This document shows, piece by piece, positions 28,891-62,259 of a stretch of 64,000 bases of DNA; position 1 is the stretch's first letter; the number at the start of each line of letters is the position of its first letter. Under the pieces are notes generated by a model that worked only from the letters and a program-made list of their open reading frames with translations, did no database searches and was not told where the DNA came from. A program made the translations under genes and the position numbers. This DNA comes from Escherichia phage phiP4, in the sequence record PP993145.1; one strand, 5' to 3'.

Positions 28891-29298
28891 TTATTCACCT
28901 GCGGCCTGTTTTACTTCATCGGCAACGCCTAACAACTGCGCCACGGCGTCCAGCGTTTCCAGCTTCGCGCTTTCAAGGCTTGCCAGATCATCGGCGTCCT
29001 TGATAATGCCGGAATCAATAGCGTGTTTTGCAATCACTCGCACGTAATGAGCTTTGCGGATTGAACTACCGCCGCCAACTTTGCGCGGCTTATCGCTTTT
29101 TTGATATGCTTTCGCGCTGGTCAATTTTGAGCGAACTGACACGGGAGAAGCCGCGCCAACTGCTTTCGCAATCTCTTTCAGGCCGTCGCTATTTGCGAAA
29201 TCTAAACCGTTTTCATTGATTAACTGCTGATACATGGTAACAGCTTTTTGGGTGTTTTCTTCGTTCCAAGAAAATTTTGCGGTTTTTGCGTTAGTCAT
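28891..29298 (-). CDS. A2: A2-like pre-early DNA-binding protein, 135 aa
   Basis: Size and position upstream of A1 as in T5; basic C-terminal region. Confidence 0.45.
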   Translation of the reverse strand: MTNAKTAKFSWNEENTQKAVTMYQQLINENGLDFANSDGLKEIAKAVGAASPVSVRSKLTSAKAYQKSDKPRKVGGGSSIRKAHYVRVIAKHAIDSGIIKDADDLASLESAKLETLDAVAQLLGVADEVKQAAGE

Positions 29299-29398
29299 GG
29301 TAAAAACTCCAATTAATTTAATTTAAGGGATTAAATGATTAACTAATGTTAATCGTTATATGCCCCGAACTACTGGGGCATATAAAGTTAACACTATA

Positions 29399-29650
29399 TT
29401 ATAAAACGGCTTCCCATTTTTCGTTACGTTGAACAACCTTTACAACGTCGCCGGATTTAACGCGAACGCTAAAAACGGTTTTTCCGTTGTTACTGCGCTC
29501 ATTTTCAGCGTATACCGCGTCGATTGTATCAAACGGCATAAGCGCCGCGCCTTTAATACGTTCGGCTTTTCCGGTTAATTCATCCGTTTTAGTAACGAAA
29601 GGAATAAAAACAGATTGACCAATTTTCGGCGCGGTAATAACGTTTTGCAT
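29399..29650 (-). CDS. hypothetical protein, 83 aa
   Basis: ORF with upstream RBS. Confidence 0.4.
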   Translation of the reverse strand: MQNVITAPKIGQSVFIPFVTKTDELTGKAERIKGAALMPFDTIDAVYAENERSNNGKTVFSVRVKSGDVVKVVQRNEKWEAVL

Positions 29651-29883
29651 AATATAAACTCCAGTTTATTTGATGGATTGTTCCGCATTATCTGCTAGAA
29701 AATACTAGCAGATAATAAGAAGAAATCCGCTCGCCATTATAAAATCAATTTAAGGAACTCCACGCGGGCCGCTATATCCCAGTTAGGGGGCGGGATGCAT
29801 TATGGTAAGCACCGACCGTCAAATTGTATCAAGTTATCGCTCTTATCGAACTGGGTACATCTTAAAGCCTATCGGCTAGGTTG

Positions 29884-30087
29884 TCAAACTATTTTTTGCA
29901 GTTTTTTATGATTTTCCTTCAGGTCGATCATAATATTTCGCCAGATCATTTCTAGTCCTTGCTGGCGGCCTTTCTTGTACTGCTCAAATCGATATTTTAC
30001 CGATCTTTGCGCTACTGTCAATAAATTTTTTGTTTTGCTATCCAGTGCCTTGCTAGGTTTACCAGTGATCAATAAAGTTTGTTTCAT
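29884..30087 (-). CDS. hypothetical basic protein, 67 aa, bracketed by 17-bp inverted repeats
   Basis: ORF flanked by tcttaaagcctatcggc (29855-29871) and its reverse complement (30118-30134). Confidence 0.3.
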   Translation of the reverse strand: MKQTLLITGKPSKALDSKTKNLLTVAQRSVKYRFEQYKKGRQQGLEMIWRNIMIDLKENHKKLQKIV

Positions 30088-30780
30088 ATCGTCGATTCCT
30101 TATAATGAATAAGTTTACCGCCGATAGGCTTTAAGATATACCCAATTTTTAAAGAGCGCGGCGGTAAACTCCCCGCCGTGTAGTTCGTCATTGCCGCCCT
30201 ACGAGATAAATAATAACAAACAACGAAAAAGGCGCAACCTTATATTTGTAAAGAAATGTAAAGACAAACGCCACCGGACACCGTGCGGCGACCTGGGCGC
30301 GGCGCATTAAAATTAAAAGAAACGGGCGCGCGAATACCACAAAACACAGCAGATAGGCAAGTAATTTTTTCATTTATATTTGCTTTGCCCTACTTGACAA
30401 AATCTAAAAAGCTCGTGGCAGCGATAAACGGCTTATCCCCTTATGATGGGATGGCTAAAAACTTTATTGCGTTCTGGGGCGTTTTAGGCCGCCTATTTTC
30501 GACTTAACAAATCATTAACAAACGCAAAATTGAAAAATAGTTGGAAAAGGTCTTGACTTTTAAAAATCAAGATCAAATGACTTATTTTATAAAATAAATT
30601 AATTGACTTTTATTTGTTAGTATGCATCGGAAAGATAGCAGACTATTAATCACTAGAAGGATGATCATGCTGGTGGATTGTAACGGCCTGAATTATTAGC
30701 AGACTATTAATCACGGAAAAACTCATTAGCCAACTAACTATTTCATGATATATAATATACTTATAAATTAATGAGAAATA

Positions 30781-30863
30781 ATAACTATAAGAAATCATCA
30801 CCATTATAATAATAACTATAAGAAATCATCACCATTATAATAATAACTATAAGAAACTATCGG
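30781..30863. repeat. 31-bp tandem direct repeat, about 2.7 copies
   Basis: ataactataagaaatcatcaccattataata repeated head-to-tail. Confidence 0.8.
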
Positions 30864-30890
30864 CATAAGTGAGAACCACTATCATTTAAG

Positions 30891-30998
30891 TTATCCACAA
30901 TGTTATCCACAGCACAAAATAATTTGACACGATAGGCGGCGATATAAGGGCTTATCCACAGACTTATCCACAGGTTATCCTACTGTATAAATATACAG
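30891..30998. promoter_or_regulatory. DnaA-box cluster (4-5 TTATCCACA-like boxes) including left 40-bp inverted repeat arm (30959-30998)
   Basis: ttatccaca, gttatccacag, cttatccacag x2, ggttatcct read directly. Confidence 0.7.
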
Positions 30999-31263
30999 GG
31001 TAAAAAGGCAGTGTTAACGACTGCAATCAATTTTAAGCGGCCTAAAACGCTTTCTAACGAGCTAAACGCTGTGGGGTAATATTAAAGTAAAGACCCAACG
31101 CGGTGCCCTGGTGGCTTCGCCGTGTTTTGCTCTTTACCGTACCGCTGCGCGGTTATCATAAAAATAGGCGTTAGGCAAGGAAAATAAAAAAGTAAAATAA
31201 TCTTTGCCTATGCTAGAAAATTACCCTTATCATTTACTCACCGATTAACGAGAGGGCCAACAA

Positions 31264-32256
31264 ATGAGGCTATATAAACCAGATAACGCAACCGTCTTAA
31301 AAGGTGCGCTGCGTAACCTGCTGGATGGTAGCAGAACAACCAGCATCCGGCATTTTGTTTTCAATATTGAAACTATTCATCAAAACTTTTTTGATGAATA
31401 TGACGCTTATAATATGAATAGTTTTCTACCGTTATATAAACAAGGGGCAACGCTTGTTTTGTATAATCAGGATTATCAATTGCTCACTAGTCGGGGGCCG
31501 GATACTGATTTCATAATCGTAAAAGGCAACACAGTAAAAGCCTATGATACTGGGGCGGGCTTAGAAGTTTTTTCAATAGAAAACTATGAGGCTAATGATA
31601 ATGATCTTTATGACGTAGAAAATTTTCTTGATTCATTTTGGCGTTATTTATCAGTTGGCTGGAATCGGTCGGATTCTGATGGGTATCGTTTTGCGGCTAT
31701 AATGGCCTTCGATGATAACGGTAATTTTTTGCTACCGTCGGAACTATGCCCGTATGTTTATAATGATCTGATACAGGAGGCCGGTTTTACTTTCTGGAAA
31801 GATGAGGATCAGATTATTAACAGTATAGAAAAACATGCTGTAAATTCTAACACTCAAAGCGTTATCACTCAAACTACTGAAAATAAAGGAAAAAACACTA
31901 TGACCAAGATCGCTAACATCGTTGCCGCCAATAAGTCTGCCGTTGTAAACGCTGCAAAACTGGAAGCGGGTAAAATTGCACTAACTCAAATCACGAAAGT
32001 AGCGGCTAAAAAAGCACCGTTCATGATCAAAGGTTATATCGATACGCCGATTGGTCGCGTAGTAATCGCTAACCTGCTGAGTGTAGCGGTTGACCAGTAC
32101 GCCCCGAGTAACCAGAAAGCGAAAGCGGTAGCGGGGGCGGCTATGGAAGCGGCAATGTTGGAAATGGTGCAAAGTTTTAACATCGCTGAGATGATCGATG
32201 AAATGGTAAAAGGTATCGATATTTCTACTTTTACCAATAACACCGAAAACGAGTAA
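31264..32256 (+). CDS. hypothetical protein, 330 aa
   Basis: First gene of plus-strand cassette between the inverted repeats; no recognisable motif. Confidence 0.45.
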   Translation: MRLYKPDNATVLKGALRNLLDGSRTTSIRHFVFNIETIHQNFFDEYDAYNMNSFLPLYKQGATLVLYNQDYQLLTSRGPDTDFIIVKGNTVKAYDTGAGLEVFSIENYEANDNDLYDVENFLDSFWRYLSVGWNRSDSDGYRFAAIMAFDDNGNFLLPSELCPYVYNDLIQEAGFTFWKDEDQIINSIEKHAVNSNTQSVITQTTENKGKNTMTKIANIVAANKSAVVNAAKLEAGKIALTQITKVAAKKAPFMIKGYIDTPIGRVVIANLLSVAVDQYAPSNQKAKAVAGAAMEAAMLEMVQSFNIAEMIDEMVKGIDISTFTNNTENE

Positions 32257-32377
32257 TAACTAGCCCATTGTAAAGTTTTGTAAAGGCCGCCTTTTATGGT
32301 GGCCTTTTTTGTTATAATGCCTTTACACCGTTTGAGGACGGTTGAAAATTTTCCCAAAAAATTTTGGAGGCTTAAAA

Positions 32378-32607
32378 TGGTTGCTTTTTCTTCTTCTGAC
32401 GCTCTTTTCACTGGAAAAGGCTGGGTATCAAATCGCTGGATTATTCAGGAAATGGTGCAAGAGTACGGCATTGCTAAAACTTATACTACCATTCAGGCGC
32501 TTTATGATAATGATCAAATCGATCAGCAAACGGCGGGCTTTTTACTGGATACCCTGAAGGCGGAACACTGTACCAAAAAACAAGCCGCTAAAATTGTTTT
32601 AATGTAA
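32378..32607 (+). CDS. hypothetical protein, 76 aa
   Basis: Start set at Met preceded by GGAGG RBS (ORF-track start 32296). Confidence 0.4.
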
Positions 32608-32656
32608 TTAATAACGGGGCGAAAGTATCGCCCCACTAACTAGGGGAGTATCACAA

Positions 32657-32839
32657 ATGATTATTTTTCGAGCTTTTTTAGCGGGTATCTTGGGAGCTAT
32701 TTTGACCCTTTTCGCCACCGCTTACGGTATTCAGGATTCCTATTGCGGTTTGGTAAACACAAAACCTATGGTTACTATAGGCGCTGGTATCGCTGTATTT
32801 TCTTATCTGCTGGGCTGCATGAATAGTAAAGGAGAATAA
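32657..32839 (+). CDS. small membrane protein, 60 aa
   Basis: Two hydrophobic segments, RBS present. Confidence 0.4.
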   Translation: MIIFRAFLAGILGAILTLFATAYGIQDSYCGLVNTKPMVTIGAGIAVFSYLLGCMNSKGE

Positions 32840-32841
32840 AA

Positions 32842-33054
32842 ATGATCCGCAACGTTTCTCTTGCACGTTCGAAAGGTTTTAAGCTGGTGGACGCTAACAC
32901 GTTCGAGCGTCCAGATTGCAAGATCGAATATGTAGCACGTAATAAAAATGCCTTTCGTGTTACCGAGAAAAAATTTGATAAGCGCGGCAACGTGATCCTT
33001 GAAACGGTTAGGCACTTTGCCACCTTTTACGCTGCATTTCGTGGGGTACTATGA
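32842..33054 (+). CDS. hypothetical protein, 70 aa
   Basis: RBS AAGGAG upstream. Confidence 0.4.
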   Translation: MIRNVSLARSKGFKLVDANTFERPDCKIEYVARNKNAFRVTEKKFDKRGNVILETVRHFATFYAAFRGVL

Positions 33055-33290
33055 AAAGCGTTATTGTTGTTATCCTTGCAATGGCTGGCGGTTTTATCGC
33101 CACCTTATTTAAGAATGATCCCACTTCGTTGGGTATCTTTATGCTTTTATCGGGCTATCTGATCGGGAGGTTGTCAAATGATAGCGCAAATTAAAACGGC
33201 TTTTCGTTTTTGGGGCGTCCTGCCTTCAATTGGTTTTATTCTGATAATCATTAGTCAGCTAATGATTATCGTTGGCGTTATCTGGGAGCT

Positions 33291-33641
33291 ATGCAAATGA
33301 TCATTTACGAGGGCAATCGCTTTGTTGCTAATTGCCGCCCGGCATTGTTAGCAAACTATTTAAACCAGCTTTCACCAGCTTATAAGGGCGTTATTAATAT
33401 TTACGAGGGCAAGGCGCATTATAAAATCAATGCGGTCGTTGCCCGTGAACTAGCGTTTCAATTTTTAACCTTTGCATCTTGCGACGTTCAGGTTATGGGT
33501 GAGGCGTTAATTGCAGAAAATGAAGACGATTTTATTAATATTTTCCGTAAGGTATGCACCGAGCGCCTGATAATCAAAGGCGCATATATTCAATCCACGG
33601 CTGATAGTATTGAAACAGCGTTTCGAAAGGTGGCGCAATGA
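33291..33641 (+). CDS. hypothetical protein, 116 aa
   Basis: ORF; last sizeable gene of plus-strand cassette. Confidence 0.4.
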   Translation: MQMIIYEGNRFVANCRPALLANYLNQLSPAYKGVINIYEGKAHYKINAVVARELAFQFLTFASCDVQVMGEALIAENEDDFINIFRKVCTERLIIKGAYIQSTADSIETAFRKVAQ

Positions 33642-33793
33642 AACGATGGTTTAATCACTGGTACAAGCGGTTTTTAGTACGCCGTCGCAAGTCTAGGCAT
33701 CAAGATGAGTGGCGGGAGTGGGCAAAGCGTAACGGTTGCCCACTAATATAATAATCACGGGGCGCAACTATCAGGGAGTGCCCCCAATTTTCA

Positions 33794-34370
33794 AATGATA
33801 ATCATTCTCATTTGACCGCGCCCGCGATGGTTAGCCTGCTAATGGTTCGGGTGTTACGTGTCGCCTTGTGTGATCGTTAGCTCGCTAACTAATTTTCAAG
33901 CCTCCTCCAATTTTGCCCTTGTTTTAGTATCCCCACCAAAATTAAACGCGTTAGAATGCGTTTGAGAGCGTTTTAACGCTATATTAGAATTATTCGCTGC
34001 GTAGGAATACTGTATATTTATCCAGTAGGATAAGCTGTGGATAAGTCTGTTAATAACGCCTCAAAATGGCTAGGGTTTTGTCAAGTCAAATCGTGCTGTT
34101 AATAAGTCTGTGGATAACTTAAATAACAGTGTTTCTCACTTCCGTTCTTAAATGAGAATCATTATCATTTGTATTTCACTATCTAACTAATAATCATTCC
34201 ACTATCTAACTAATAATCATTCCACTTTCTAAATGAGAATCATTCCGCTTTTTAAATGAGAATCATTTCACTTTTTAAATGAGATTGATTCTCATTTCAC
34301 TTTCTAAATGCGAATTATTATCATTCTCATTCCGCTTTTTAAATGAGAATGATTCTTATTATCATTCGTA
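33794..34370. promoter_or_regulatory. array of at least 7 Fur-box-like AT-rich palindromes (AAATGAGAATCATT family)
   Basis: 33794-33814 aaatgataatcattctcattt matches 16/19 of GATAATGATAATCATTATC; 34148-34166 matches 15/19; further copies 34231-34366. Confidence 0.45.
34010..34049. repeat. right 40-bp inverted repeat arm with DnaA boxes (partner of 30959-30998)
   Basis: Reverse complement equals left arm with 3 mismatches; extra tgtggataac box at 34103-34112. Confidence 0.75.
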
Positions 34371-34374
34371 TTTA

Positions 34375-34396
34375 GCGCAGAGCAATTGCTCTGCGC
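34375..34396. repeat. perfect 22-bp palindrome gcgcagagcaattgctctgcgc
   Basis: Read directly. Confidence 0.85.
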
Positions 34397-34400
34397 TTTT

Positions 34401-35000
34401 GTGCAAATCCGACATTGCTCCACGGGTGTTACGTGCGGGCGTGTATGTGCGAATCCGACAATTTTTGGTAGTGTGCAAATCCGACCCGAAAAATTTTTAT
34501 AGTGTGCAAATCCGACAATGAATTTTCCTAAAAACTCCAGCAATCCGATGCTGCGCATCAATCCTGTGGAATTAGCTAGAGTATGTGCAAATCCGACATG
34601 GGTTTATTTGTGCGAATCCGACAAGATTTTTGTGACTTCGATTGGAGGGTGTGTGATTGTGTGGGTTTGGGGAGAAGTTGAGAGAGCGAGAGAAAATAAG
34701 AGGAGAAGCTAGAGGGGCAGCAGTGGTGGCGTGCAACGCCTGATTTGCTGCGTTTTTGGGGAGAGTTGAAAAGATTTGGGTTAATTTGAGATTAGTGGAG
34801 ATAAAGTAAAATTTTATTAGCAAAATGGGGCAAAATAGCTTGACAAGTGAAAATTTCTGTGGCTCTAAAAACTCAGGCAATCACGGGCCTTCGGCCCGAA
34901 ATAATGCTGCCATTTTCAGGAGATTATATGTTCCTAAAAACTTAGGCAATTGTGCAAATCCGACCATAAATTTCTAGAAACACAATGTGCAAATCCGACA
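34401..35000. repeat. eight dispersed copies of GTGC(A/G)AATCCGAC(A/C) motif plus AACCGCC and ttcctaaaaac repeats; injection-stop-signal-like noncoding region
   Basis: Copies at 34401, 34447, 34473, 34503, 34585, 34610, 34953, 34987. Confidence 0.75.
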
Positions 35001-35473
35001 GTAATTTCTGGAAATGTGTTTTCAAAAAATGTCTCCTAGAAATAACCGCCCTCCCCATAACCGCCCTGTATTAAACCGCCTAGTATATGTTCCTAGAAAC
35101 TTGGGAGAACCGCCCACTAGAAGCGTGAGATCTCGTGAGTATTTCGTGAGAACTCTGGAGTTTCTAGGAAAGTGTTGTGCCATCCTAGCAGATGAGCGGC
35201 AACCGGTGTATCATCTTGAATGTAAATTATGTGGTCAAAAGTTTTACCTTTAATTTAAGTATAAGATCCCCCAAGATTGGAAGAGATGCTCCACCCCTGG
35301 GATACGAATTGCGTGAGATGGTACAAAACTTCTTAAGATTTCCCTAGTCCTTCGACAAGCTACGGGGGAAATAGAAGTTTCCCATCCACCATCCGTATCC
35401 GGGTGGATCTCTTTATTCTATGTTATTTCATAGAGTTATTATAACATGCAGAAATCATAACGTCAAGTAGAGT

Positions 35474-36364
35474 TTATTCATCGAACATGAGATTTCCTTT
35501 CATCCCCATCTCCGCATACTCCATGAGTTCTTTGATGGATCTCACGGGGTAATCTACTTTACTAAAGTTATCATAGATCTTACATGAACTCTCATACAAC
35601 TCGTTAGGTATCTGCAATTTGTTATCTGTTAGCTTCTCATAACGTGCAGAAGAATTTGTACCGTCAAACAGAACTGCGATAACTGCGGCGATTTGTTTAG
35701 TAAGATCATCTGCTCCTAGAATTATTCTATTAATAGCAATCGTTACTTCATGCTTAGGTTTAGCAGGTGGAAGGATAGGTTTGAGATCCTTAGGTAAAGG
35801 TTCTGTTCCTAGGAATCCTTCTTTTGTGCGGAACCAATAATTATCTAGATCAGATATCGTCTTAGACTTATTCCAAATAGTGAAGCAGGGTTTATTTCCT
35901 TCACGATCTCTGTATTCACGAATTGGAAGGTAATGATCAGGGAATGAATTGAGTGCATCATGCATCGGTGAGCCTGTCTTTTTGAATGACAAACCATACA
36001 ACTCATTATAATTCATAACTTCATCTTCGTAAACATGGAAATCTTTATATGCTGGAAGATTAAACCATTCCTGAAGTGAATGAACTGCAAAACGTTGTGC
36101 CCAAGCATGCATCACTAGAACTCTGTATTCTTTTACTTCATCTTTTGGAGAAGTACCTTTAGCTGTTCTAGCTGAACGAATACAGAACATCTCAACAACA
36201 CGTTTCTCATTTAAAGAGAGTTCAGAATAACAACGTTCATGGCAACCTTCTAGCATTTCTAGAAGTTCACGTAGTTTCTCTACATCGACCGGTGGAAAAG
36301 GTCTTTCTTCAACTGCGAATTTACCAGTTACACCTTTTGGTTTTCTATTACTATAAAATCCCAT
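35474..36364 (-). CDS. hypothetical early protein, 296 aa
   Basis: First ORF after repeat block. Confidence 0.5.
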   Translation of the reverse strand: MGFYSNRKPKGVTGKFAVEERPFPPVDVEKLRELLEMLEGCHERCYSELSLNEKRVVEMFCIRSARTAKGTSPKDEVKEYRVLVMHAWAQRFAVHSLQEWFNLPAYKDFHVYEDEVMNYNELYGLSFKKTGSPMHDALNSFPDHYLPIREYRDREGNKPCFTIWNKSKTISDLDNYWFRTKEGFLGTEPLPKDLKPILPPAKPKHEVTIAINRIILGADDLTKQIAAVIAVLFDGTNSSARYEKLTDNKLQIPNELYESSCKIYDNFSKVDYPVRSIKELMEYAEMGMKGNLMFDE

Positions 36365-36966
36365 TAATTACCTCTCTTATCTTCATTAATAGCAGCTCCC
36401 AACGCTTCAAGGATAGCATCACTCATACTCCCAGGCTTAAGATTATTAAAGTGAGTAACATAAATGGGACTTCTAAAACCCTTAGCATCCGCAGGTGCTA
36501 CGCTTCGCATATCAGATTCAAAAGCTTCTTGAGTGTGTTTCAACTGTACAGAAGGGCCGTAATCTTCCCCAAACTTATATGACTGCGTACTACTTACCAC
36601 ACTCCCACAAGGAACATTGTGCAAATCCGGTGATTTATTTAGCATTGAGATTGTCCCTGACTGCCACGGATCTCTAATAGTCACTGGAGTACTAGGGCGG
36701 TTCACCTCAGTCTTCACAAGTTTATATCCTGCATCGATTAATACGTTAATTAGATTATCAGCTGGGATGCGAGCCTTACCAAAAATCTTACGAGCATCTT
36801 CGAGCTTATCCTCAAGATCTTTACACGCTCTAAGGTCAGTGTGTGCAAATGTTAGCTTCATGGATTTGAATTGTACAGTAGCAGTTAGATCTTTAAAGCT
36901 ATAATCCCATGTGTTCAGTTCATGGTCTGGTACTACTTGAATAGATTGTTGTACATTAAAAGTCAT
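36364..36966 (-). CDS. hypothetical early protein, 200 aa
   Basis: ORF, start overlaps previous stop. Confidence 0.5.
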   Translation of the reverse strand: MTFNVQQSIQVVPDHELNTWDYSFKDLTATVQFKSMKLTFAHTDLRACKDLEDKLEDARKIFGKARIPADNLINVLIDAGYKLVKTEVNRPSTPVTIRDPWQSGTISMLNKSPDLHNVPCGSVVSSTQSYKFGEDYGPSVQLKHTQEAFESDMRSVAPADAKGFRSPIYVTHFNNLKPGSMSDAILEALGAAINEDKRGN

Positions 36967-37151
36967 TATTTATTCTCCAGTTTGTCTAATAGCTTATGAG
37001 CTGCTAGATTATATTGTTTGAGTTCACGATTAAGGATTTGATTCTCACACTTTAGCTCTAGATTCTTATTATTAAGAATATTGCAGATTAGTAGAAGTGC
37101 TAATATTAGTAACAGAGAACCTACGAGCATTAAAAGAAAAAGAGTTTCCAT
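36966..37151 (-). CDS. small membrane protein, 61 aa
   Basis: Hydrophobic N-terminal helix. Confidence 0.35.
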   Translation of the reverse strand: METLFLLMLVGSLLLILALLLICNILNNKNLELKCENQILNRELKQYNLAAHKLLDKLENK

Positions 37152-37693
37152 TATTTTATCTCCATTCTTAACTTTGAAAACTTATTATACCAAACTATAT
37201 GATTATCGTCAATTACAAATTTATGATAACATGCTGGTACGGTATAAGTTCCATAATCTGTGACACGCTGCACAACCTTGTGTGCACACAGTCGACAACC
37301 ATGCCCTTCTAAATGAGATCTAGCAGTTTGCCAGTAATAACCATCATGATCTGGACAATAGATCTCGACTTGCTGTTGCATTGTTTTGTAATTTACACGC
37401 TCATATCCAAAGAAAGCTCCATGAACTGCAACAGCTTTCTTGATAAATATAAGGTTTAGTGCTTCTTGTTGAAAGTCGGGATGTAGCTGCTTAATCTTAG
37501 TTCTATTAATAGATCCATCCGATTTGATGAACCTATTTATTGGAAAGTTGTTAGCTTCCTCGATTAGTAATTCATTTACTTTTTCTCTCATATTATATAC
37601 TCTCACAGCTAAGGTAAAAACATTCGTAAGCATCACCAGTAAACTCTTTATCTTGTAGTATACATTTAGCCTGGTCTTCTGGTACTCCGGCAT
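37151..37693 (-). CDS. hypothetical protein with Cys/His cluster, 180 aa
   Basis: HLEGHGCRLCAH motif. Confidence 0.4.
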   Translation of the reverse strand: MPEYQKTRLNVYYKIKSLLVMLTNVFTLAVRVYNMREKVNELLIEEANNFPINRFIKSDGSINRTKIKQLHPDFQQEALNLIFIKKAVAVHGAFFGYERVNYKTMQQQVEIYCPDHDGYYWQTARSHLEGHGCRLCAHKVVQRVTDYGTYTVPACYHKFVIDDNHIVWYNKFSKLRMEIK

Positions 37694-37850
37694 CTAATAA
37701 TTGTTGTTTACTTGGCTTTTCAGCGAATACTTTTACAAAATATTCACCATCCTGATTATACTCATTTATATCTCTAGTAAGGACATATAATTGCATCTGA
37801 AGTTCCTTGAAACACAAAAGGCCAGAACAATTAAGTCCTGGCCTCTAGAA

Positions 37851-38222
37851 TTAATGAAGTTGTTTACCACTTCTTAAAATAGTGGCCGTTTCCATAAGAT
37901 TTAACGTTGTATCACGCTTTTTGATTTGTTTGTCGAGTTCATCGGTACGTTTGCCAATGTAAGCGTTAATAGCCATATTCATAGCGGAGGCGAGATCTTC
38001 TTTGGTTATCTCTTCGTCATCTAAGGCTAATTTAGCCAAAGAATCGAAAGTACTAGAAAGTCCTATAAGATCAGAAGCTTCCCCAGCCAAAATAGGGTTA
38101 ACATTATCTATTGTTACTTCTAGCATAGAGTTAACAATATCTTCTCCGTCTACTAGACCAGATTCAATATTACTCTCCCATTCCTTCATCTGCTCCAGCA
38201 ATGGATTTTTCTTTTCTGTCAT
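37851..38222 (-). CDS. hypothetical protein, 123 aa
   Basis: ORF. Confidence 0.4.
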   Translation of the reverse strand: MTEKKNPLLEQMKEWESNIESGLVDGEDIVNSMLEVTIDNVNPILAGEASDLIGLSSTFDSLAKLALDDEEITKEDLASAMNMAINAYIGKRTDELDKQIKKRDTTLNLMETATILRSGKQLH

Positions 38223-38631
38223 GGTAGAGGTTTCCTGTGTCAGTTGGTAAGAAGGACGATTGAGCTTTAGGCGGATGTTGTTTAGTAATCCAGTTAAGAA
38301 TCAGTACACGACTAGGAACAATATCAGTGTTGCACCAAAAATCATGAACCCATTGACGAGCATCCTCAAACTTACCAAATTTATATGCTTTCTTAAATAA
38401 TTCAAACCCAAAACAATCTGGTGTAAAGTCTACTTCACGATATTGAATTACTTTAGAACCAGTTAGGTCTTGGATCGCTGCATTAATTTCTGTATGCGAG
38501 AATTTTGTTTCGTGAAACTTATTAAAGAATCGGTAGTTGAAGCGTCCGTTCGTTTCGACAAACAACTGGATGAAGAGATCGTTAAATTGGTTATCAAACC
38601 AGTAATTCTGTAGTTGTTGTAGTGCTGTCAT
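38170..38631 (-). CDS. hypothetical protein, 153 aa
   Basis: ORF. Confidence 0.4.
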   Translation of the reverse strand: MTALQQLQNYWFDNQFNDLFIQLFVETNGRFNYRFFNKFHETKFSHTEINAAIQDLTGSKVIQYREVDFTPDCFGFELFKKAYKFGKFEDARQWVHDFWCNTDIVPSRVLILNWITKQHPPKAQSSFLPTDTGNLYHDRKEKSIAGADEGMGE

Positions 38632-53817: not shown

Positions 53818-54380
53818 AATTGAAAACTCGCAGGGTTAGCGAAACCTTCCTCAATTAGCATGTTCTAGAATACTAATCAAGTTATCTCCTATTGCACGCA
53901 GCTCAAGACGAGTACGAATTTTCAATTGTGGCGGCTCTCAGAAACTCTTCTACTCTAGCTTTAGCAGCTTACTCCCGAACGCATGTCGGGGAAGTCTTAC
54001 CAAGAGCATCAAATAGCACCGTTACACTTTGAGCCATAGATGTATCAAGAAGCAGAAGGATTTGAACCTTCACGAGATAGACCAGTTATCTCAGCCGCTT
54101 TATGAGGTATGTTGCAGGGAGTGGATGTTCCCTATAAACCTTTTAGGCAGCCCCGTCTACCGATTCCGGCATACTTCAAGAATTTTTTATAAACCAGCAG
54201 AAGCCTCATTTAAAGCATCAACAATAGCTTCACGTTGGGTCATTCCATACCCGGTGGAATCTAGGTGTGGCAAATAAGCCATCCATCCCTTATCTGTTTC
54301 ATGAAGACATGCTTTAAATTTTTTACCATCCTTCATTGTTACAGTAACTGTTTTGCTCATAAGATTTCCTTATAGTTAAT

Positions 54381-54850: not shown

Positions 54851-54941
54851 TGGCGGAAGAGGAGAGATTTGAACTCTCAAGCCGTTTTACCAGTCAGCCA
54901 CTTTCCAAGCGGTTTTCGTCACCAATTCGATTTGCTCTTCC
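54851..54941 (-). tRNA. tRNA-Ser (anticodon GGA), class II
   Basis: 91 nt, T-arm GAGAG-TTCAAAT-CTCTC, loop TTGGAAA. Confidence 0.6.
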
Positions 54942-55043
54942 AATAATAAGATGATGCCTCTATCACACCAGGCAGTTACGCCTCGCTGGGATTCGAACCC
55001 ATTAAAACAGCTCAACCGAGATAGTAGGTTTAATTTACTCTGA

Positions 55044-55120
55044 CCATCAAATTTGGTGCGTGACAAGGGATTCGAACCCTCAAAACCCGACTTCTAAGGA
55101 CGGTATGTATGCCAATTCCA
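55044..55120 (-). tRNA. tRNA with anticodon TAG (Leu codon CUA) but class I short variable loop
   Basis: 77 nt, acceptor GCGTGAT/GTCACGC, A73, loop CTTAGAA, 5-nt variable GTTTT; covaries with tRNA at 59288. Confidence 0.55.
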
Positions 55121-55135
55121 TCAATCACGCATATT

Positions 55136-55214
55136 TGGTGGAGAATAACGGAATCGAACCGTTCTGATGTCCTCGGTGCAAGCGAGGTGTCCACTCCATG
55201 CAGACCCATTCCCC
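55136..55214 (-). tRNA. tRNA-Ala (anticodon TGC) with G3:U70
   Basis: Stem CCTCG/CGAGG loop CTTGCAC; G3-U70 wobble in acceptor. Confidence 0.75.
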
Positions 55215-55229
55215 AAATTCTTTAGTTTA

Positions 55230-55411
55230 CTAAGGCTATTAGCTCGGCGTAACTACAGCACCTTCGCTTCGAGCGGAAGGAACTGCGTCATCTCGCAAAC
55301 CCAATACACTATTCAGTTGCCGCTGAATCTAGTGGACCAATCTAGAACTTCTCCCGAATCAGGGGGATCGTGCTTTTTGGCAGCCAGTCCTAGGTCGAGC
55401 TAATACCTTAG
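55230..55411 (-). ncRNA. candidate structured small RNA closed by a 16-bp terminal helix
   Basis: 55230-55246 pairs with 55396-55411 (one bulge); internal hairpins; promoter at 55453-55481 on same strand; no credible ORF. Confidence 0.4.
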
Positions 55412-55452
55412 TGAACTATGATGAGGATTTCTCCTCATCAATTTATATAAAT

Positions 55453-55481
55453 ATTATAACAAGAAATTAAGCATCAAGCAA
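55453..55481 (-). promoter_or_regulatory. sigma70 early promoter (TTGCTT-17-TATAAT) upstream of ncRNA candidate
   Basis: Hexamers read on minus strand. Confidence 0.55.
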
Positions 55482-55500
55482 CTGCGTTTTTTCTTGAAAT

Positions 55501-55988: not shown

Positions 55989-56380
55989 ATGAATTTTTAA
56001 TAAATTTACTTATTGTGTAGGCCACCTAGAGGCTATGAACCCCACGGCTGACAAAGAAGTTTGCGAGACTTCTCTTAAATGCCAGAATAGACCCGCCGAT
56101 CTATCGGAACCTACATAATAAGTAAACTTTATAGTGTCATTCTAGACAGGACTCGAACCTGTTATCACTTGTGCGGACTTACGAGAACCATTCTTTCACT
56201 CGAATCGAACGAGCTTCTGCCCTCGCCAAGCTGGTTTCCCCATCAACCACGCTAGAATGTTTGATTGTTTTCAGTGCAAGAGTCCGAGTCTTGGACACGA
56301 CCGCTTCGCAAGTACATAGGCAGCTTATCATGAGTCAGCACTTCCGAATTGCTAGCTCCGTGTTCTGCACTGAAATTTTA

Positions 56381-57025: not shown

Positions 57026-57126
57026 GCTTATTTCCTCAGTTATTAATGAAAATGGTATCTGTGGCTGAATTCGATGTCAGCAATGATAGCTGGTTGGCTA
57101 CCGGTTTACTTAACTCTACACAGAAT

Positions 57127-59867: not shown

Positions 59868-59945
59868 TGGTGGCTCCCCGAGGATTCGAACCTACGTACC
59901 TTCCGGTTATGAGCCGGGTGCTCATACCATATGAGCTTGAGAACC
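59868..59945 (-). tRNA. tRNA-Met (anticodon CAT), initiator-like anticodon arm
   Basis: CCCGG-CTCATAA-CCGGAAGG resembles E. coli tRNA-fMet. Confidence 0.6.
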
Positions 59946-61854: not shown

Positions 61855-62259
61855 ATGAGTAAATATGGTTTTGTAAATAACGGACTTAATCAAAGTATGG
61901 GCTCCCAGCAGCCCATGCCGGGTCTGGATAACCCCTACTTACAACAGTTGCAACAGCGTTTAGCAGAAGCGCAACAGATGCAGCAACAACTCCAGCAAAA
62001 CCCTGGAAGTGTGAGTCCTATGCAAATGATGCAGCAAATGAGCGGGCAGTCGCAAATGCCTCAACAAATGCAGCAACAGGTGCCGCAGCAGCAAACCCAA
62101 CAACCGCAGGTTTCTGCGGAAGGACAGGCAGTACTAGCCCTTTTCGAAGACTTCGCAAAGACAGAGGATGGGAAACAGCTTGTATCACTTATGGGTAAGT
62201 TTAATAGCTTCTGCCAAAGCCAAGTTGCAAAAGCTCAAAATGGTGGTAATAACTCCTAA
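61855..62259 (+). CDS. Gln-rich low-complexity protein, 134 aa
   Basis: GGAGG RBS; QQ-rich repeats. Confidence 0.45.
   Translation: MSKYGFVNNGLNQSMGSQQPMPGLDNPYLQQLQQRLAEAQQMQQQLQQNPGSVSPMQMMQQMSGQSQMPQQMQQQVPQQQTQQPQVSAEGQAVLALFEDFAKTEDGKQLVSLMGKFNSFCQSQVAKAQNGGNNS

What the first reader, a model, noticed from the sequence alone, without database searches (positions are those of the whole stretch)
55230..55481. Candidate structured small RNA with its own promoter inside the tRNA cluster
A 182-nt element is closed by a 16-bp helix (55230-55246 with 55396-55411) and contains several internal hairpins. It has no credible ORF (the 78-aa plus-strand ORF is antisense to the tRNA operons) and sits directly downstream of a consensus promoter on the tRNA strand. 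This resembles the stable non-tRNA RNAs known from the T4 tRNA region.
Basis: seen in the sequence. Interest (0 to 1): 0.65.

Follow-up and report, generated by a model that had tools for sequence, protein, structure and literature searches.

The report
Known phage T5 stable RNA RNA2H
The flagged element is real: it is this phage's copy of rna2H, a small structured non-coding RNA gene with its own promoter that the phage T5 reference genome already annotates, and whose function is still unknown.

Summary
On the minus (tRNA) strand, a T5-type early promoter (TTGCTT-17-TATAAT, 55481-55453) is followed by a 9-bp GAAA-loop hairpin. Next comes a ~184-nt four-way-junction RNA closed by a 7+10 bp helix with one bulged G, extendable to 21 bp. 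Nine bases further on, tRNA-Ala begins.

The element is 95.9% identical to T5 gene rna2H. GenBank AY543070 annotates rna2H as a misc_RNA, "stable RNA with unknown functions", preceded by "promoter P13b".

New here:
- Homologs occur in about 430 T5-like phage records (Tequintavirus, Epseptimavirus). A divergent syntenic form occurs in Klebsiella Sugarlandvirus phages.
- The fold is strongly supported: 25 of 59 pairs show compensatory double changes, and 98% of cells are paired against 32-42% when the partners are slid.
- Fixed G·U pairs assign the RNA to the minus strand.
- The 78-aa plus-strand ORF is not conserved.
- No Rfam family matches, and there is no homology to the T4 species 1 or 2 RNAs.

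The RNA is dispensable: a natural deletion variant exists, and published viable T5 deletion mutants span the gene.

Likely mechanism: co-transcription with tRNA-Ala and tRNA-Leu, then excision within the closing duplex. The function, possibly a protein-binding decoy, is unresolved.

The parts
55427..55491 (-). T5 early-promoter cassette, homolog of T5 'promoter P13b'. The -35 hexamer TTGCTT lies at 55481-55476, the spacer is 17 nt, and the -10 hexamer TATAAT lies at 55458-55453. The inferred start is an A near 55446.
   Evidence: Sequence. 98.5% identical to the annotated T5 P13b. Member of a repeated cassette. TTGCT-N18-TATAAT occurs 13 times against 0.09 expected. The start site is inferred from spacing only.
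55419..55440 (-). 5' leader hairpin UGAUGAGGA-GAAA-UCCUCAUCA (9 bp, GAAA loop). It sequesters the GAGGAG Shine-Dalgarno-like string that the promoter cassette carries elsewhere.
   Evidence: MFE fold. Conserved with G/A wobble-compatible changes. Replaced by a ~110-nt insert in Stp1, phiR2-01 and JNwz02.
55396..55417 (-). P1, 5' strand of the closing duplex (AGUU-C-ACUAAGG-UAUUAGCUCG).
   Evidence: Six pairs show compensatory double changes in the Sugarlandvirus homologs.
55224..55246 (-). P1, 3' strand (CGAGCUAAUA-G-CCUUAGU-A-AACU), with a conserved bulged G at 55236.
   Evidence: The bulged G is kept in the Klebsiella phages.
55234..55405 (-). Equivalent of the mature 172-nt RNA2H as annotated in T5 (5' UAUUAGCUCG ... 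CGAGCUAAUAGCC 3').
   Evidence: blastn of T5 rna2H against the window gives 95.9% over 172/172 nt. The covariance model scores 229.6 bits on the minus strand and 32.3 on the plus strand.
55342..55393 (-). P2 domain. CUAGGACU (55393-55386) pairs with AGUUCUAG (55349-55342). It encloses the invariant GGCUGCCAAAAAGCAC and the variable hairpin P2a (UCCC 55367-55364 with GGGA 55355-55352).
   Evidence: P2a has 2 covarying pairs, and carries a 22-26 nt extension in Epseptimavirus and a different extension in Sugarlandvirus. P2 shows only wobble-compatible changes in the T5 clade and C-G/U.G/U-A in the Klebsiella clade.
55307..55334 (-). P3 hairpin CACUAG-AUUCAG-CGGCAA-CUGAAU-AGUG, with an invariant GGCAAC in the loop.
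   Evidence: Nearly invariant, with only wobble-compatible changes.
55328..55346 (-). Alternative hairpin UCUAG (55346-55342) with CUAGA (55332-55328). It is mutually exclusive with the base of P2 and the base of P3.
   Evidence: 100% of cells are paired. Two adjacent double compensatory changes occur in phage bobsandoy.
55297..55306 (-). Conserved single-stranded junction J3/4 (UAUUGGGUUU). It is part of the string AGUGUAUYG..UUUG kept across three genera.
   Evidence: Alignments.
55247..55296 (-). P4, a long irregular hairpin. Its base is GCG/CGC, which covaries with GUG/CAC. Two sequence types exist with the same shape.
   Evidence: Eight pairs carry double changes.
55136..55214 (-). tRNA-Ala(UGC), 9 nt downstream of extended P1. 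It is always the next gene after the element, in all three genera.
   Evidence: ARAGORN. Synteny.
55167..55403 (+). Spurious 78-aa antisense ORF.
   Evidence: The frame is broken in nearly all homologs, where the longest open frame is 24-40 codons (52 in bobsandoy). Indels of 1, 7 and 22-26 nt also occur.

Best explanation
The element is this phage's ortholog of the T5 gene rna2H. It encodes a non-coding RNA of about 172-184 nt on the minus strand.

Shown or strongly supported:
- It lies directly downstream of the T5-type early promoter P13b.
- It folds into a four-way junction (P1-P4) maintained by selection.
- It is confined to T5-like phages.
- It is always followed by tRNA-Ala.
- It is dispensable.

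Inferred:
- Host sigma-70 RNA polymerase transcribes 5'-hairpin + RNA2H + tRNA-Ala + tRNA-Leu as one early precursor.
- RNase P cutting at the 5' end of tRNA-Ala frees the 3' side.
- An RNase III-type staggered cut inside the 21-bp P1 duplex yields the annotated 172-nt species, leaving a 10-bp terminal clamp with a 2-nt 3' overhang plus the bulged G. Alternatively, RNase P and 3' trimming use the 10-bp stem plus G-CC as an acceptor mimic.
- The clamp and the compact junction make the RNA nuclease-resistant, so it accumulates.
- The invariant unpaired strings (CCAAAAAGCAC, AUUAGUCC, GGCAAC, GUAUYGGGUUUG) are the working surface. Most plausibly they bind and titrate a host or phage protein, as a decoy or scaffold active early in infection.
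For: Identity:
- T5, T5st0 and DT57C annotate the homolog as misc_RNA rna2H/RNA2H 'stable RNA with unknown functions', with promoter P13b upstream.
- The window copy is 95.9% identical over 172 nt.

Promoter:
- It belongs to the cassette family, and the pattern is enriched 13 versus 0.09 expected.

Structure:
- On 36 distinct sequences, 99.4% of cells are paired against 30-42% when the partners are slid, with 9 pairs carrying double changes.
- On 51 distinct sequences including Sugarlandvirus, 97.9% of cells are paired and 25 of 59 pairs carry double changes, 6 of them in P1.

Strand:
- 216 G.U cells make the same pairs only 89.5% canonical on the plus strand.
- The covariance model scores 229.6 bits on the minus strand and 32.3 on the plus strand.

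Not coding.

Processing geometry:
- The annotated T5 ends of rna2H and rnaIII lie inside flanking duplexes, with 2-nt 3' overhangs.

Synteny with tRNA-Ala in three genera.

Dispensability:
- A natural interior deletion keeps P1.
- The viable T5 deletions 29191-32442 and 30661-38625 span the gene (PMC11464382).
Against: - No transcript data were available here. The 'stable RNA' status rests on GenBank annotation whose experimental basis I could not read, because the primary papers are not in the library.
- The RNase III step is inferred only from helix length and the annotated ends. The rnaIV ends fit less well, with a 1-nt stagger.
- Nothing identifies a binding partner.
- The core pairings P2 and P3 are nearly invariant, so covariation neither proves nor refutes them. 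An alternative hairpin is also supported.
- One phage has an A.C mismatch in P1 (L023), and one partial genome has non-matching P1 strands.
- Dispensability in the laboratory leaves open that the core has little function.
Confidence: 0.8

Rival explanations
1. The element is only a cis-acting 5' leader of the tRNA-Ala/tRNA-Leu transcription unit. It acts as a processing and stability platform: the P1 duplex and the 5' hairpin protect the precursor and position the nucleases. It has no trans-acting function, and the stable fragment is a by-product.
For: - Linkage to tRNA-Ala across three genera is invariable, while the upstream neighbours vary.
- The natural deletion variant L030 keeps the promoter, the 5' hairpin, P1 and tRNA-Ala but loses the whole core.
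- The downstream tRNA-Ala is atypical: it is absent from the Rfam tRNA matches at gathering score, and the best clan match over it is tRNA-Sec at 23.6 bits.
Against: A mere spacer would not keep about 60 unpaired or junction nucleotides invariant between Tequintavirus and Epseptimavirus while the peripheral hairpins diverge. It would also not keep the strings CCAAAAA.CAC and AGUGUAUYG..UUUG into Sugarlandvirus. Other T5 tRNA units have no such leader.
Confidence: 0.2
2. The core is a bistable RNA switch. The 3' strand of P2 pairs either with the 5' strand of P2 or with a downstream complementary segment, and the two conformers have different activities or processing fates.
For: - The alternative hairpin 55346-55342 with 55332-55328 is 100% paired in 36 sequences, with two adjacent double compensatory changes in bobsandoy.
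- Centroid and MFE structures disagree in this region.
Against: The covariation rests on one lineage in the T5 clade. The alignment of the Klebsiella middle region has low posterior probability. Short CUAG and AGAG repeats can pair by chance. No ligand or trigger is known.
Confidence: 0.15
3. It is a DNA-level element, such as a miniature inverted-repeat element, a homing-endonuclease target or a nick site, and the inverted repeat matters as DNA rather than as RNA.
For: - There is a 17-bp terminal inverted repeat.
- The tRNA region is rich in HNH homing endonucleases.
- The plus strand folds at least as well thermodynamically.
Against: - Only a single copy exists per genome: the covariance model finds only the element itself in the 64-kb window.
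- Fixed G.U pairs are valid only on the minus strand.
- Compensatory changes preserve internal RNA helices.
- It sits immediately downstream of a promoter, on the transcribed strand.
Confidence: 0.03
4. The plus-strand 78-aa ORF (55167-55403) encodes a small protein.
For: The ORF exists in this window. Some pipelines annotate antisense 'hypothetical proteins' over homologs, for example Roth37 and SmurfNell.
Against: - It starts antisense inside tRNA-Ala.
- The frame is interrupted in nearly all homologs, where the longest open frame is 24-40 codons (52 in bobsandoy).
- Indels of 1, 7 and 22-26 nt occur.
- The conservation pattern is that of helices, not codons.
Confidence: 0.01

Closest known systems
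Phage T5 rna2H (RNA2H), GenBank AY543070 31808-31979, with promoter P13b
   Same: It is the same gene. The window copy is 95.9% identical over the full 172 nt. Strand, promoter cassette and downstream tRNA-Ala/tRNA-Leu are the same.
   Different: This phage lacks the tRNA-Val that T5 has between tRNA-Lys and P13b. There are a few substitutions in loops, and a window-specific long antisense open frame.
Other T5 stable RNAs (rnaI, rnaIII, rnaIV; tRNA-like rna1, rna2, rna3)
   Same: They lie in the same tRNA region on the same strand, and all have homologs in the window. Like RNA2H, rnaIII and rnaIV are enclosed by 18-20 bp duplexes formed by their flanks.
   Different: The covariance model detects no sequence or structural homology, and finds no second hit in the window. 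RNA2H has no T-arm and is not tRNA-like. It is the largest of the set after rna1, and the only one with its own dedicated promoter directly upstream.
Phage T4 species 1 and species 2 RNAs (rnaC, rnaD)
   Same: They are also small stable RNAs of unknown function embedded in a phage tRNA cluster and co-transcribed with tRNAs.
   Different: There is no homology: the RNA2H model scores at most 4 bits on rnaC and rnaD. T4 rnaC ends in a tRNA-like T-arm and acceptor, which RNA2H lacks.
RNase III processing stems (rRNA precursor stems, T7 early mRNA sites). This comparison rests on established knowledge, not on a test here.
   Same: The 5' and 3' flanks form a duplex of about 21 bp with small bulges. 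The annotated mature ends fall inside it, with a 2-nt 3' overhang.
   Different: Cleavage has not been demonstrated. The stem plus G-CC could equally be read as an RNase P / CCA-type acceptor mimic.

Membership tests
T5 rna2H / RNA2H | Sequence homology to the annotated T5 rna2H over its whole length | tested here: met
   95.9% identity over 172/172 nt, at window 55405-55234. 96% identity to T5 and DT57C over the 286-nt spacer.
T5 rna2H / RNA2H | Synteny: downstream of promoter P13b, upstream of tRNA-Ala and tRNA-Leu, on the tRNA strand | tested here: met
   The P13b homolog is 98.5% identical at 55491-55427. tRNA-Ala lies at 55214-55136 and tRNA-Leu at 55130-55054. Compare T5.
T5 rna2H / RNA2H | Accumulates as a discrete stable RNA in infected cells | not testable with these tools
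   It rests on the GenBank note 'stable RNA with unknown functions'. The primary literature is not in the library.
Structured non-coding RNA (general) | Secondary structure maintained by compensatory substitutions, specific to one strand | tested here: met
   25 of 59 pairs carry double changes, and 97.9% of cells are paired against 32-42% when slid. The same pairs are 99.4% canonical on the minus strand and 89.5% on the plus strand.
tRNA or tRNA-like RNA (T5 rna1/rna2, T4 rnaC, tmRNA, YrlA) | T-arm (GTTCRANYC loop), cloverleaf or tRNA-like domain | tested here: not met
   ARAGORN finds no tRNA or tmRNA there. There is no match to tRNA, tmRNA or any other Rfam model up to E = 10. No T-loop motif is present in the sequence.
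Any Rfam 15 family (6S, RNase P, Y RNA, ribozymes, riboswitches) | Covariance-model match at or near the gathering score | tested here: not met
   At gathering score only tRNAs match. In the E-value search, nothing over the structured element (55224-55417) is credible: the only entries reaching into it are snoU30 (55399-55480, 21.4 bits against a gathering score of 45, E = 0.22) and RAGATH-25 (55344-55365, 12.6 bits against 49, E = 2.7). The other weak hits lie in the promoter and leader.
T4 species 1/2 RNAs | Homology to rnaC or rnaD | tested here: not met
   The RNA2H model was run with filters off on the T4 tRNA region. The best hit is 12 bits at an unrelated site, and rnaC and rnaD score at most 4 bits.
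RNase III substrate | About two turns of duplex formed by the flanks | tested here: met
   4+7+10 = 21 bp with two single-base interruptions.
RNase III substrate | Staggered cleavage with a 2-nt 3' overhang, dependent on rnc | not testable with these tools
   The T5-annotated ends give a 2-nt overhang geometry. However, their experimental basis is unknown, and no rnc data are available.
Protein-coding gene | Reading frame conserved among homologs | tested here: not met
   Frame-breaking indels appear.
Miniature inverted-repeat mobile element | Multiple dispersed copies per genome | tested here: not met
   One copy in the 64-kb window and one per related genome.

The most novel reading that the evidence does not exclude
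RNA2H may be a trans-acting early anti-host RNA. It may be the founding member of a class of T5 RNAs (RNA2H, RNAIII, RNAIV) that are excised from tRNA precursors by RNase III-type cuts in long flanking duplexes. Its invariant junction loops would titrate a host factor or defence protein, and its core would toggle between two conserved alternative pairings. This would give the 40-year-old 'stable RNAs of unknown function' in phage tRNA clusters a counter-defence role parallel to that recently shown for the T5 tRNAs.
Probability: 0.12. Interest if true: 0.65.

Novelty: already known. Interest (0 to 1): 0.3.

Why it matters
As a discovery it does not matter, because the gene and its promoter are in the T5 reference annotation.

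It still has some value:
- RNA2H has no Rfam family, and about 98% of the ~430 phage records that carry it leave it unannotated or cover it with a spurious antisense ORF.
- This analysis provides a covariation-backed structure, a strand assignment, a distribution (Tequintavirus, Epseptimavirus, Sugarlandvirus) and a calibrated covariance model, which could seed a family.
- T5 tRNAs were recently shown to neutralise tRNA-targeting defences (PARIS, retron Eco7; PMC11464382, PMC10644984). The function of the co-transcribed non-tRNA RNAs is therefore an obvious, cheap next question.

Tried and rejected
- **Rfam.** Gathering and E <= 10 searches gave no family.
- **Similarity outside phages.** blastn against E. 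coli genomes and plasmids found nothing.
- **Pattern scans.** Two conserved-core patterns were scanned against IMG/VR, metagenomes and GTDB genomes. Only T5-like and Sugarlandvirus-type contigs were confirmed by the covariance model. All other matches (high-GC environmental contigs, archaeal MAGs) were chance.
- **T4 homology.** The model run on the T4 tRNA region found no homology to rnaC or rnaD.
- **Paralogy with other T5 RNAs.** The name RNA2H suggested 'RNA2 homolog', but the model finds no second hit in the window or in the T5 locus. A short TAGTCC-like similarity to rna2, seen by eye, was not pursued.
- **Pseudoknots.** Two were considered by eye: UGCC (P2 loop) with GGCA (P3 loop), and CAAA with UUUG. 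The first is broken without compensation in phiR2-01, and the second shows no coherent covariation. Both were dropped.
- **K-turn.** A K-turn in the P4 internal loop was considered, but there are no tandem G.A pairs.
- **Codon display.** T-box-like display of an Ala codon (GCA in the P3 loop) toward the downstream tRNA-Ala was considered. The Sugarlandvirus loop (CUGGUAA) lacks it, so this was rejected as numerology.
- **CRISPR repeat resemblance.** The Epseptimavirus P2a extension (CCCC-N8-GGGG-AUAA) resembles the type I-E CRISPR repeat as I recall it, at about 14/29 identity. Other clades carry unrelated extensions, so I treat it as coincidence.
- **Literature.** Searches for T5 stable RNAs and for RNA-seq found no paper that discusses RNA2H. 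The Wang et al. 2005 T5 genome paper is not held.
- **Wrong locus.** The first Klebsiella fetch (L043) was in the replication region rather than the tRNA region, because the blast hit there was only the shared promoter cassette.

Full report
**Context**

The window is a T5-like phage (Tequintavirus). ARAGORN finds 22 tRNA genes between 51.5 and 63.6 kb, all on the minus strand. The finding lies in the 286-nt spacer between tRNA-Lys (55579-55501) and tRNA-Ala (55214-55136).

**Check of the observation**

Read on the minus strand, the spacer contains the following, in order:
- TTGCTT (55481-55476), a 17-nt spacer, then TATAAT (55458-55453).
- A 9-bp hairpin with a GAAA loop (55440-55419).
- A long structured element.
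- Nine further bases, then tRNA-Ala.

- ACUAAGG-UAUUAGCUCG (55412-55396) pairs with CGAGCUAAUA-G-CCUUAGU (55246-55229).
- That is 7+10 = 17 bp with one bulged G.
- Four more pairs (55417-55414 with 55227-55224) make 21 bp.

The spacer folds far better than shuffled controls on either strand: z = -5.3 on the minus strand and -8.4 on the plus strand, with 0 of 200 shuffles as stable.

The generic promoter scanner did not list this site, because TTGCTT matches TTGACA at only 3 of 6 positions. The site is nevertheless a member of a cassette repeated through the tRNA region (families D5, D6, D8, D11). The pattern TTGCT-N18-TATAAT occurs 13 times in the window against 0.09 expected, 12 times on the minus strand. 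So "consensus promoter" should read "canonical T5-type early promoter".

**What it is**

blastn against GenBank phages finds the spacer in 539 records and the structured element alone in 427. Apart from a few records named for other hosts, these are T5-like phages of Escherichia, Salmonella, Shigella, Yersinia and Citrobacter.

Three records annotate the homologous stretch as a misc_RNA gene. These are DT57C, the T5 reference AY543070 and T5st0 AY692264. The annotation reads: gene rna2H, product RNA2H, "stable RNA with unknown functions". The gene is 172 nt on the tRNA strand, and in the two T5 records it is preceded by the regulatory feature "promoter P13b".

The window matches T5 rna2H at 95.9% over all 172 nt (55405-55234) and matches P13b at 98.5%. 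All six other T5 misc_RNA genes (rnaI, rnaIII, rnaIV, rna1, rna2, rna3) also have homologs in the window.

The only local difference from T5 is that this phage lacks the tRNA-Val lying between tRNA-Lys and P13b in T5.

**Structure and strand**

I aligned 36 distinct homologs from Tequintavirus and Epseptimavirus (A2). RNAalifold gives a four-way junction:
- P1, the closing helix.
- P2, enclosing an invariant internal loop and a variable hairpin P2a.
- P3.
- P4, a long irregular hairpin.

On this alignment, 99.4% of pair cells are canonical against 30-42% when the 3' partners are slid. Nine pairs carry changes on both sides.

The conservation pattern is that of a structured RNA:
- P1 and about 60 junction or loop nucleotides are invariant.
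- P2a and P4 diverge with compensation.
- P2a carries a 22-26 nt extension in many Epseptimaviruses.
- The base of P4 covaries GCG/CGC with GUG/CAC.

The strand can be assigned. There are 216 G.U cells, several of them fixed. The same pairs are 99.4% canonical on the minus strand but 89.5% on the plus strand. The covariance model built from A2 (R1) scores 229.6 bits on the minus strand and 32.3 on the plus strand. The better plus-strand folding energy is therefore not informative.

**A distant homolog**

Klebsiella phage Roth37 (Sugarlandvirus) has a 273-nt spacer in the same place: promoter TTGCTA-17-TATAAT, then the element, then tRNA-Ala and tRNA-Leu. R1 detects it and its relatives at 63-70 bits, E about 1e-16.

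Its P1 reads AGUUUGUUAAGG-AAUUAAUCUG / CGGAUUAAUU-G-CCUUAAC-AAAUU. Compared with T5, this is six compensatory double changes with the bulged G kept. P2 covaries within the Klebsiella clade (C-G, U.G, U-A).

On the model-fitted alignment of 51 distinct sequences, 25 of 59 pairs have double changes and 97.9% of cells pair. This alignment leans towards the model in the middle region, but P1, P2a and P4 are unambiguous.

The strings CCAAAAA(G/A)CAC and AGUGUAUYG..UUUG are unpaired in the model and are kept in all three genera.

**Alternatives excluded**

- *Protein-coding gene.* The 78-aa plus-strand ORF begins antisense inside tRNA-Ala. Its frame is open for 59 codons within the element only in this window. 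In nearly all homologs the longest open frame is 24-40 codons (52 in bobsandoy). Indels of 1, 7 and 22-26 nt occur.
- *Known RNA families.* No Rfam family matches at gathering score or up to E = 10. ARAGORN sees no tRNA or tmRNA.
- *Host or plasmid origin.* There is no similarity in 5,426 E. coli genomes or in PLSDB plasmids.
- *T4 stable RNAs.* The element is not homologous to T4 rnaC or rnaD. The resemblance is positional.
- *Repeated DNA element.* R1 finds one copy in the window.
- *Wider distribution.* Pattern scans of IMG/VR, metagenomes and GTDB genomes recovered only T5-like and Sugarlandvirus-type contigs. Every other match failed the model.

**How it probably works**

Shown:
- The element follows a T5 early promoter.
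- It folds into a conserved structure on that strand.
- tRNA-Ala follows it 9 nt downstream of extended P1, in every genus examined.

Inferred:
- It is the first cistron of an early precursor: 5' hairpin, RNA2H, tRNA-Ala, tRNA-Leu.
- RNase P cleavage at tRNA-Ala separates the 3' side.
- The T5-annotated ends (5' UAUUAGCUCG, 3' ...AAUAGCC) lie inside the 21-bp P1 duplex. They leave a 10-bp clamp with a 2-nt 3' overhang (plus the bulged G, depending on how the bulge is drawn).
- rnaIII has the same geometry inside an 18-20 bp flanking duplex. rnaIV sits inside a similar duplex but fits less exactly.
- This is the signature of an RNase III-type staggered cut. Alternatively, stem + G + CC can be read as an acceptor mimic for RNase P and CCA addition.
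- I could not establish whether the annotated ends were measured.

The mature RNA, a clamped compact junction, would be exonuclease-resistant. Its invariant unpaired segments are the likely functional surface. I favour a protein-binding decoy or scaffold role, but nothing here identifies a partner.

**Dispensability**

One IMG/VR genome (L030) has lost the whole interior between two GCUCGA repeats, while keeping the promoter, the 5' hairpin, P1 and tRNA-Ala.

The viable T5 deletion mutants used in the PARIS study (deletions 29191-32442 and 30661-38625, described there as non-essential) span rna2H at 31808-31979 (PMC11464382). I am assuming that the paper uses the reference T5 coordinates.

**An unresolved point**

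The 3' strand of P2 (UCUAG, 55346-55342) can pair with the 5' strand of P2, or alternatively with CUAGA (55332-55328). The second pairing is 100% canonical in A2 and is kept in phage bobsandoy by two adjacent double changes, while P2 there loses a pair.

This may indicate a bistable core. The evidence is thin.

**Verdict**

The novelty class is "already known". Interest is low to moderate. The function of RNA2H, and of the other T5 and T4 stable RNAs, remains open. The covariation-backed model produced here is a usable starting point for that question, but the finding itself would not surprise a T5 specialist.

Noticed in passing
window 53819-53924, 53929-54035, 54036-54180, 56014-56116, 56135-56259, 57053-57125 (all minus strand): Homologs of the other six T5 misc_RNA genes are present: rnaIII, rnaI, rna1, rnaIV, rna2 and rna3, at 84-100% identity. 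None has an Rfam family. Like rna2H, rnaIII and rnaIV are enclosed by 18-20 bp duplexes formed by their flanks. The T5-annotated ends of rnaIII fall inside its duplex with a 2-nt 3' overhang.
   Followed up: partly
window 54851-54945 (minus strand): The sequence reads as a tRNA-Ser(GGA)-like gene: anticodon loop CUUGGAAAG, T-arm GAGAGUUCAAAUCUCUC, 3' CCGCCA. Neither ARAGORN nor the Rfam tRNA model at gathering score called it.
   Followed up: partly
window ~54965-55050 (minus strand): A stretch with a perfect T-arm-like motif (UGGGUUCGAAUCCCA) has no callable cloverleaf. It is possibly a tRNA remnant or a tRNA-like RNA. It sits where T5 carries the HNH endonuclease gene hegC.
   Followed up: no
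window 59871-59945 (minus strand): The Rfam tRNA model hits here at 40.3 bits, but ARAGORN did not report it. By position it corresponds to the tRNA-Ile(CAU) next to tRNA-Ser(GCU) in DT57C.
   Followed up: no
window 55136-55214 (minus strand): The tRNA-Ala(UGC) immediately downstream of RNA2H is atypical. It is 79 nt long and absent from the Rfam tRNA matches at gathering score. In the E-value search the only clan match kept over it is tRNA-Sec, at 23.6 bits.
   Followed up: no
window 24297-60639; the list is: Thirteen copies of TTGCT-N18-TATAAT occur against 0.09 expected, 12 of them on the minus strand. Several share a 40-80 nt cassette that includes the downstream AUAAAUUG...GAGGAG leader. 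In P13b, this Shine-Dalgarno-like string is folded into the GAAA hairpin.
   Followed up: partly
L006:465-575, L007 and L008 (Salmonella phage Stp1, Yersinia phage phiR2-01, Salmonella phage JNwz02): A conserved insert of about 110 nt replaces the small 5' hairpin between promoter P13b and P1 of RNA2H. It folds only moderately (-26 kcal/mol including flanks). Its nature is unknown.
   Followed up: no
L030 (IMGVR_UViG_2706796640, 108,483-bp genome): This is a natural deletion variant of RNA2H. The interior between two GCTCGA repeats is lost, leaving 62 nt, while the promoter, the 5' hairpin, both P1 strands and tRNA-Ala are kept.
   Followed up: yes
L046 (Klebsiella phage vB_Kpn_3, MZ079855, partial genome): The element is chimeric. 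It has a third type of P1 5' strand and a Sugarlandvirus-type core, but an Epseptimavirus-type P4 and P1 3' strand, so P1 cannot form. This is either a recombinant or an assembly chimera.
   Followed up: no
L004, L005, L008, L034, L036, L037, L042 (Epseptimavirus P2a extension): The inserted hairpin CCCC-N8-GGGG followed by AUAA has the same spacing as the E. coli/Salmonella type I-E CRISPR repeat as I recall it, with about 14/29 identity. Other clades carry unrelated extensions at the same place, so this is probably coincidence.
   Followed up: no
window 61971-62088: Short tandem 12- and 39-nt repeats of GCAACAGATGCAGCAA-like units occur here (families D14 and D15). They are presumably a Gln/Ala-rich coding repeat.
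   Followed up: no
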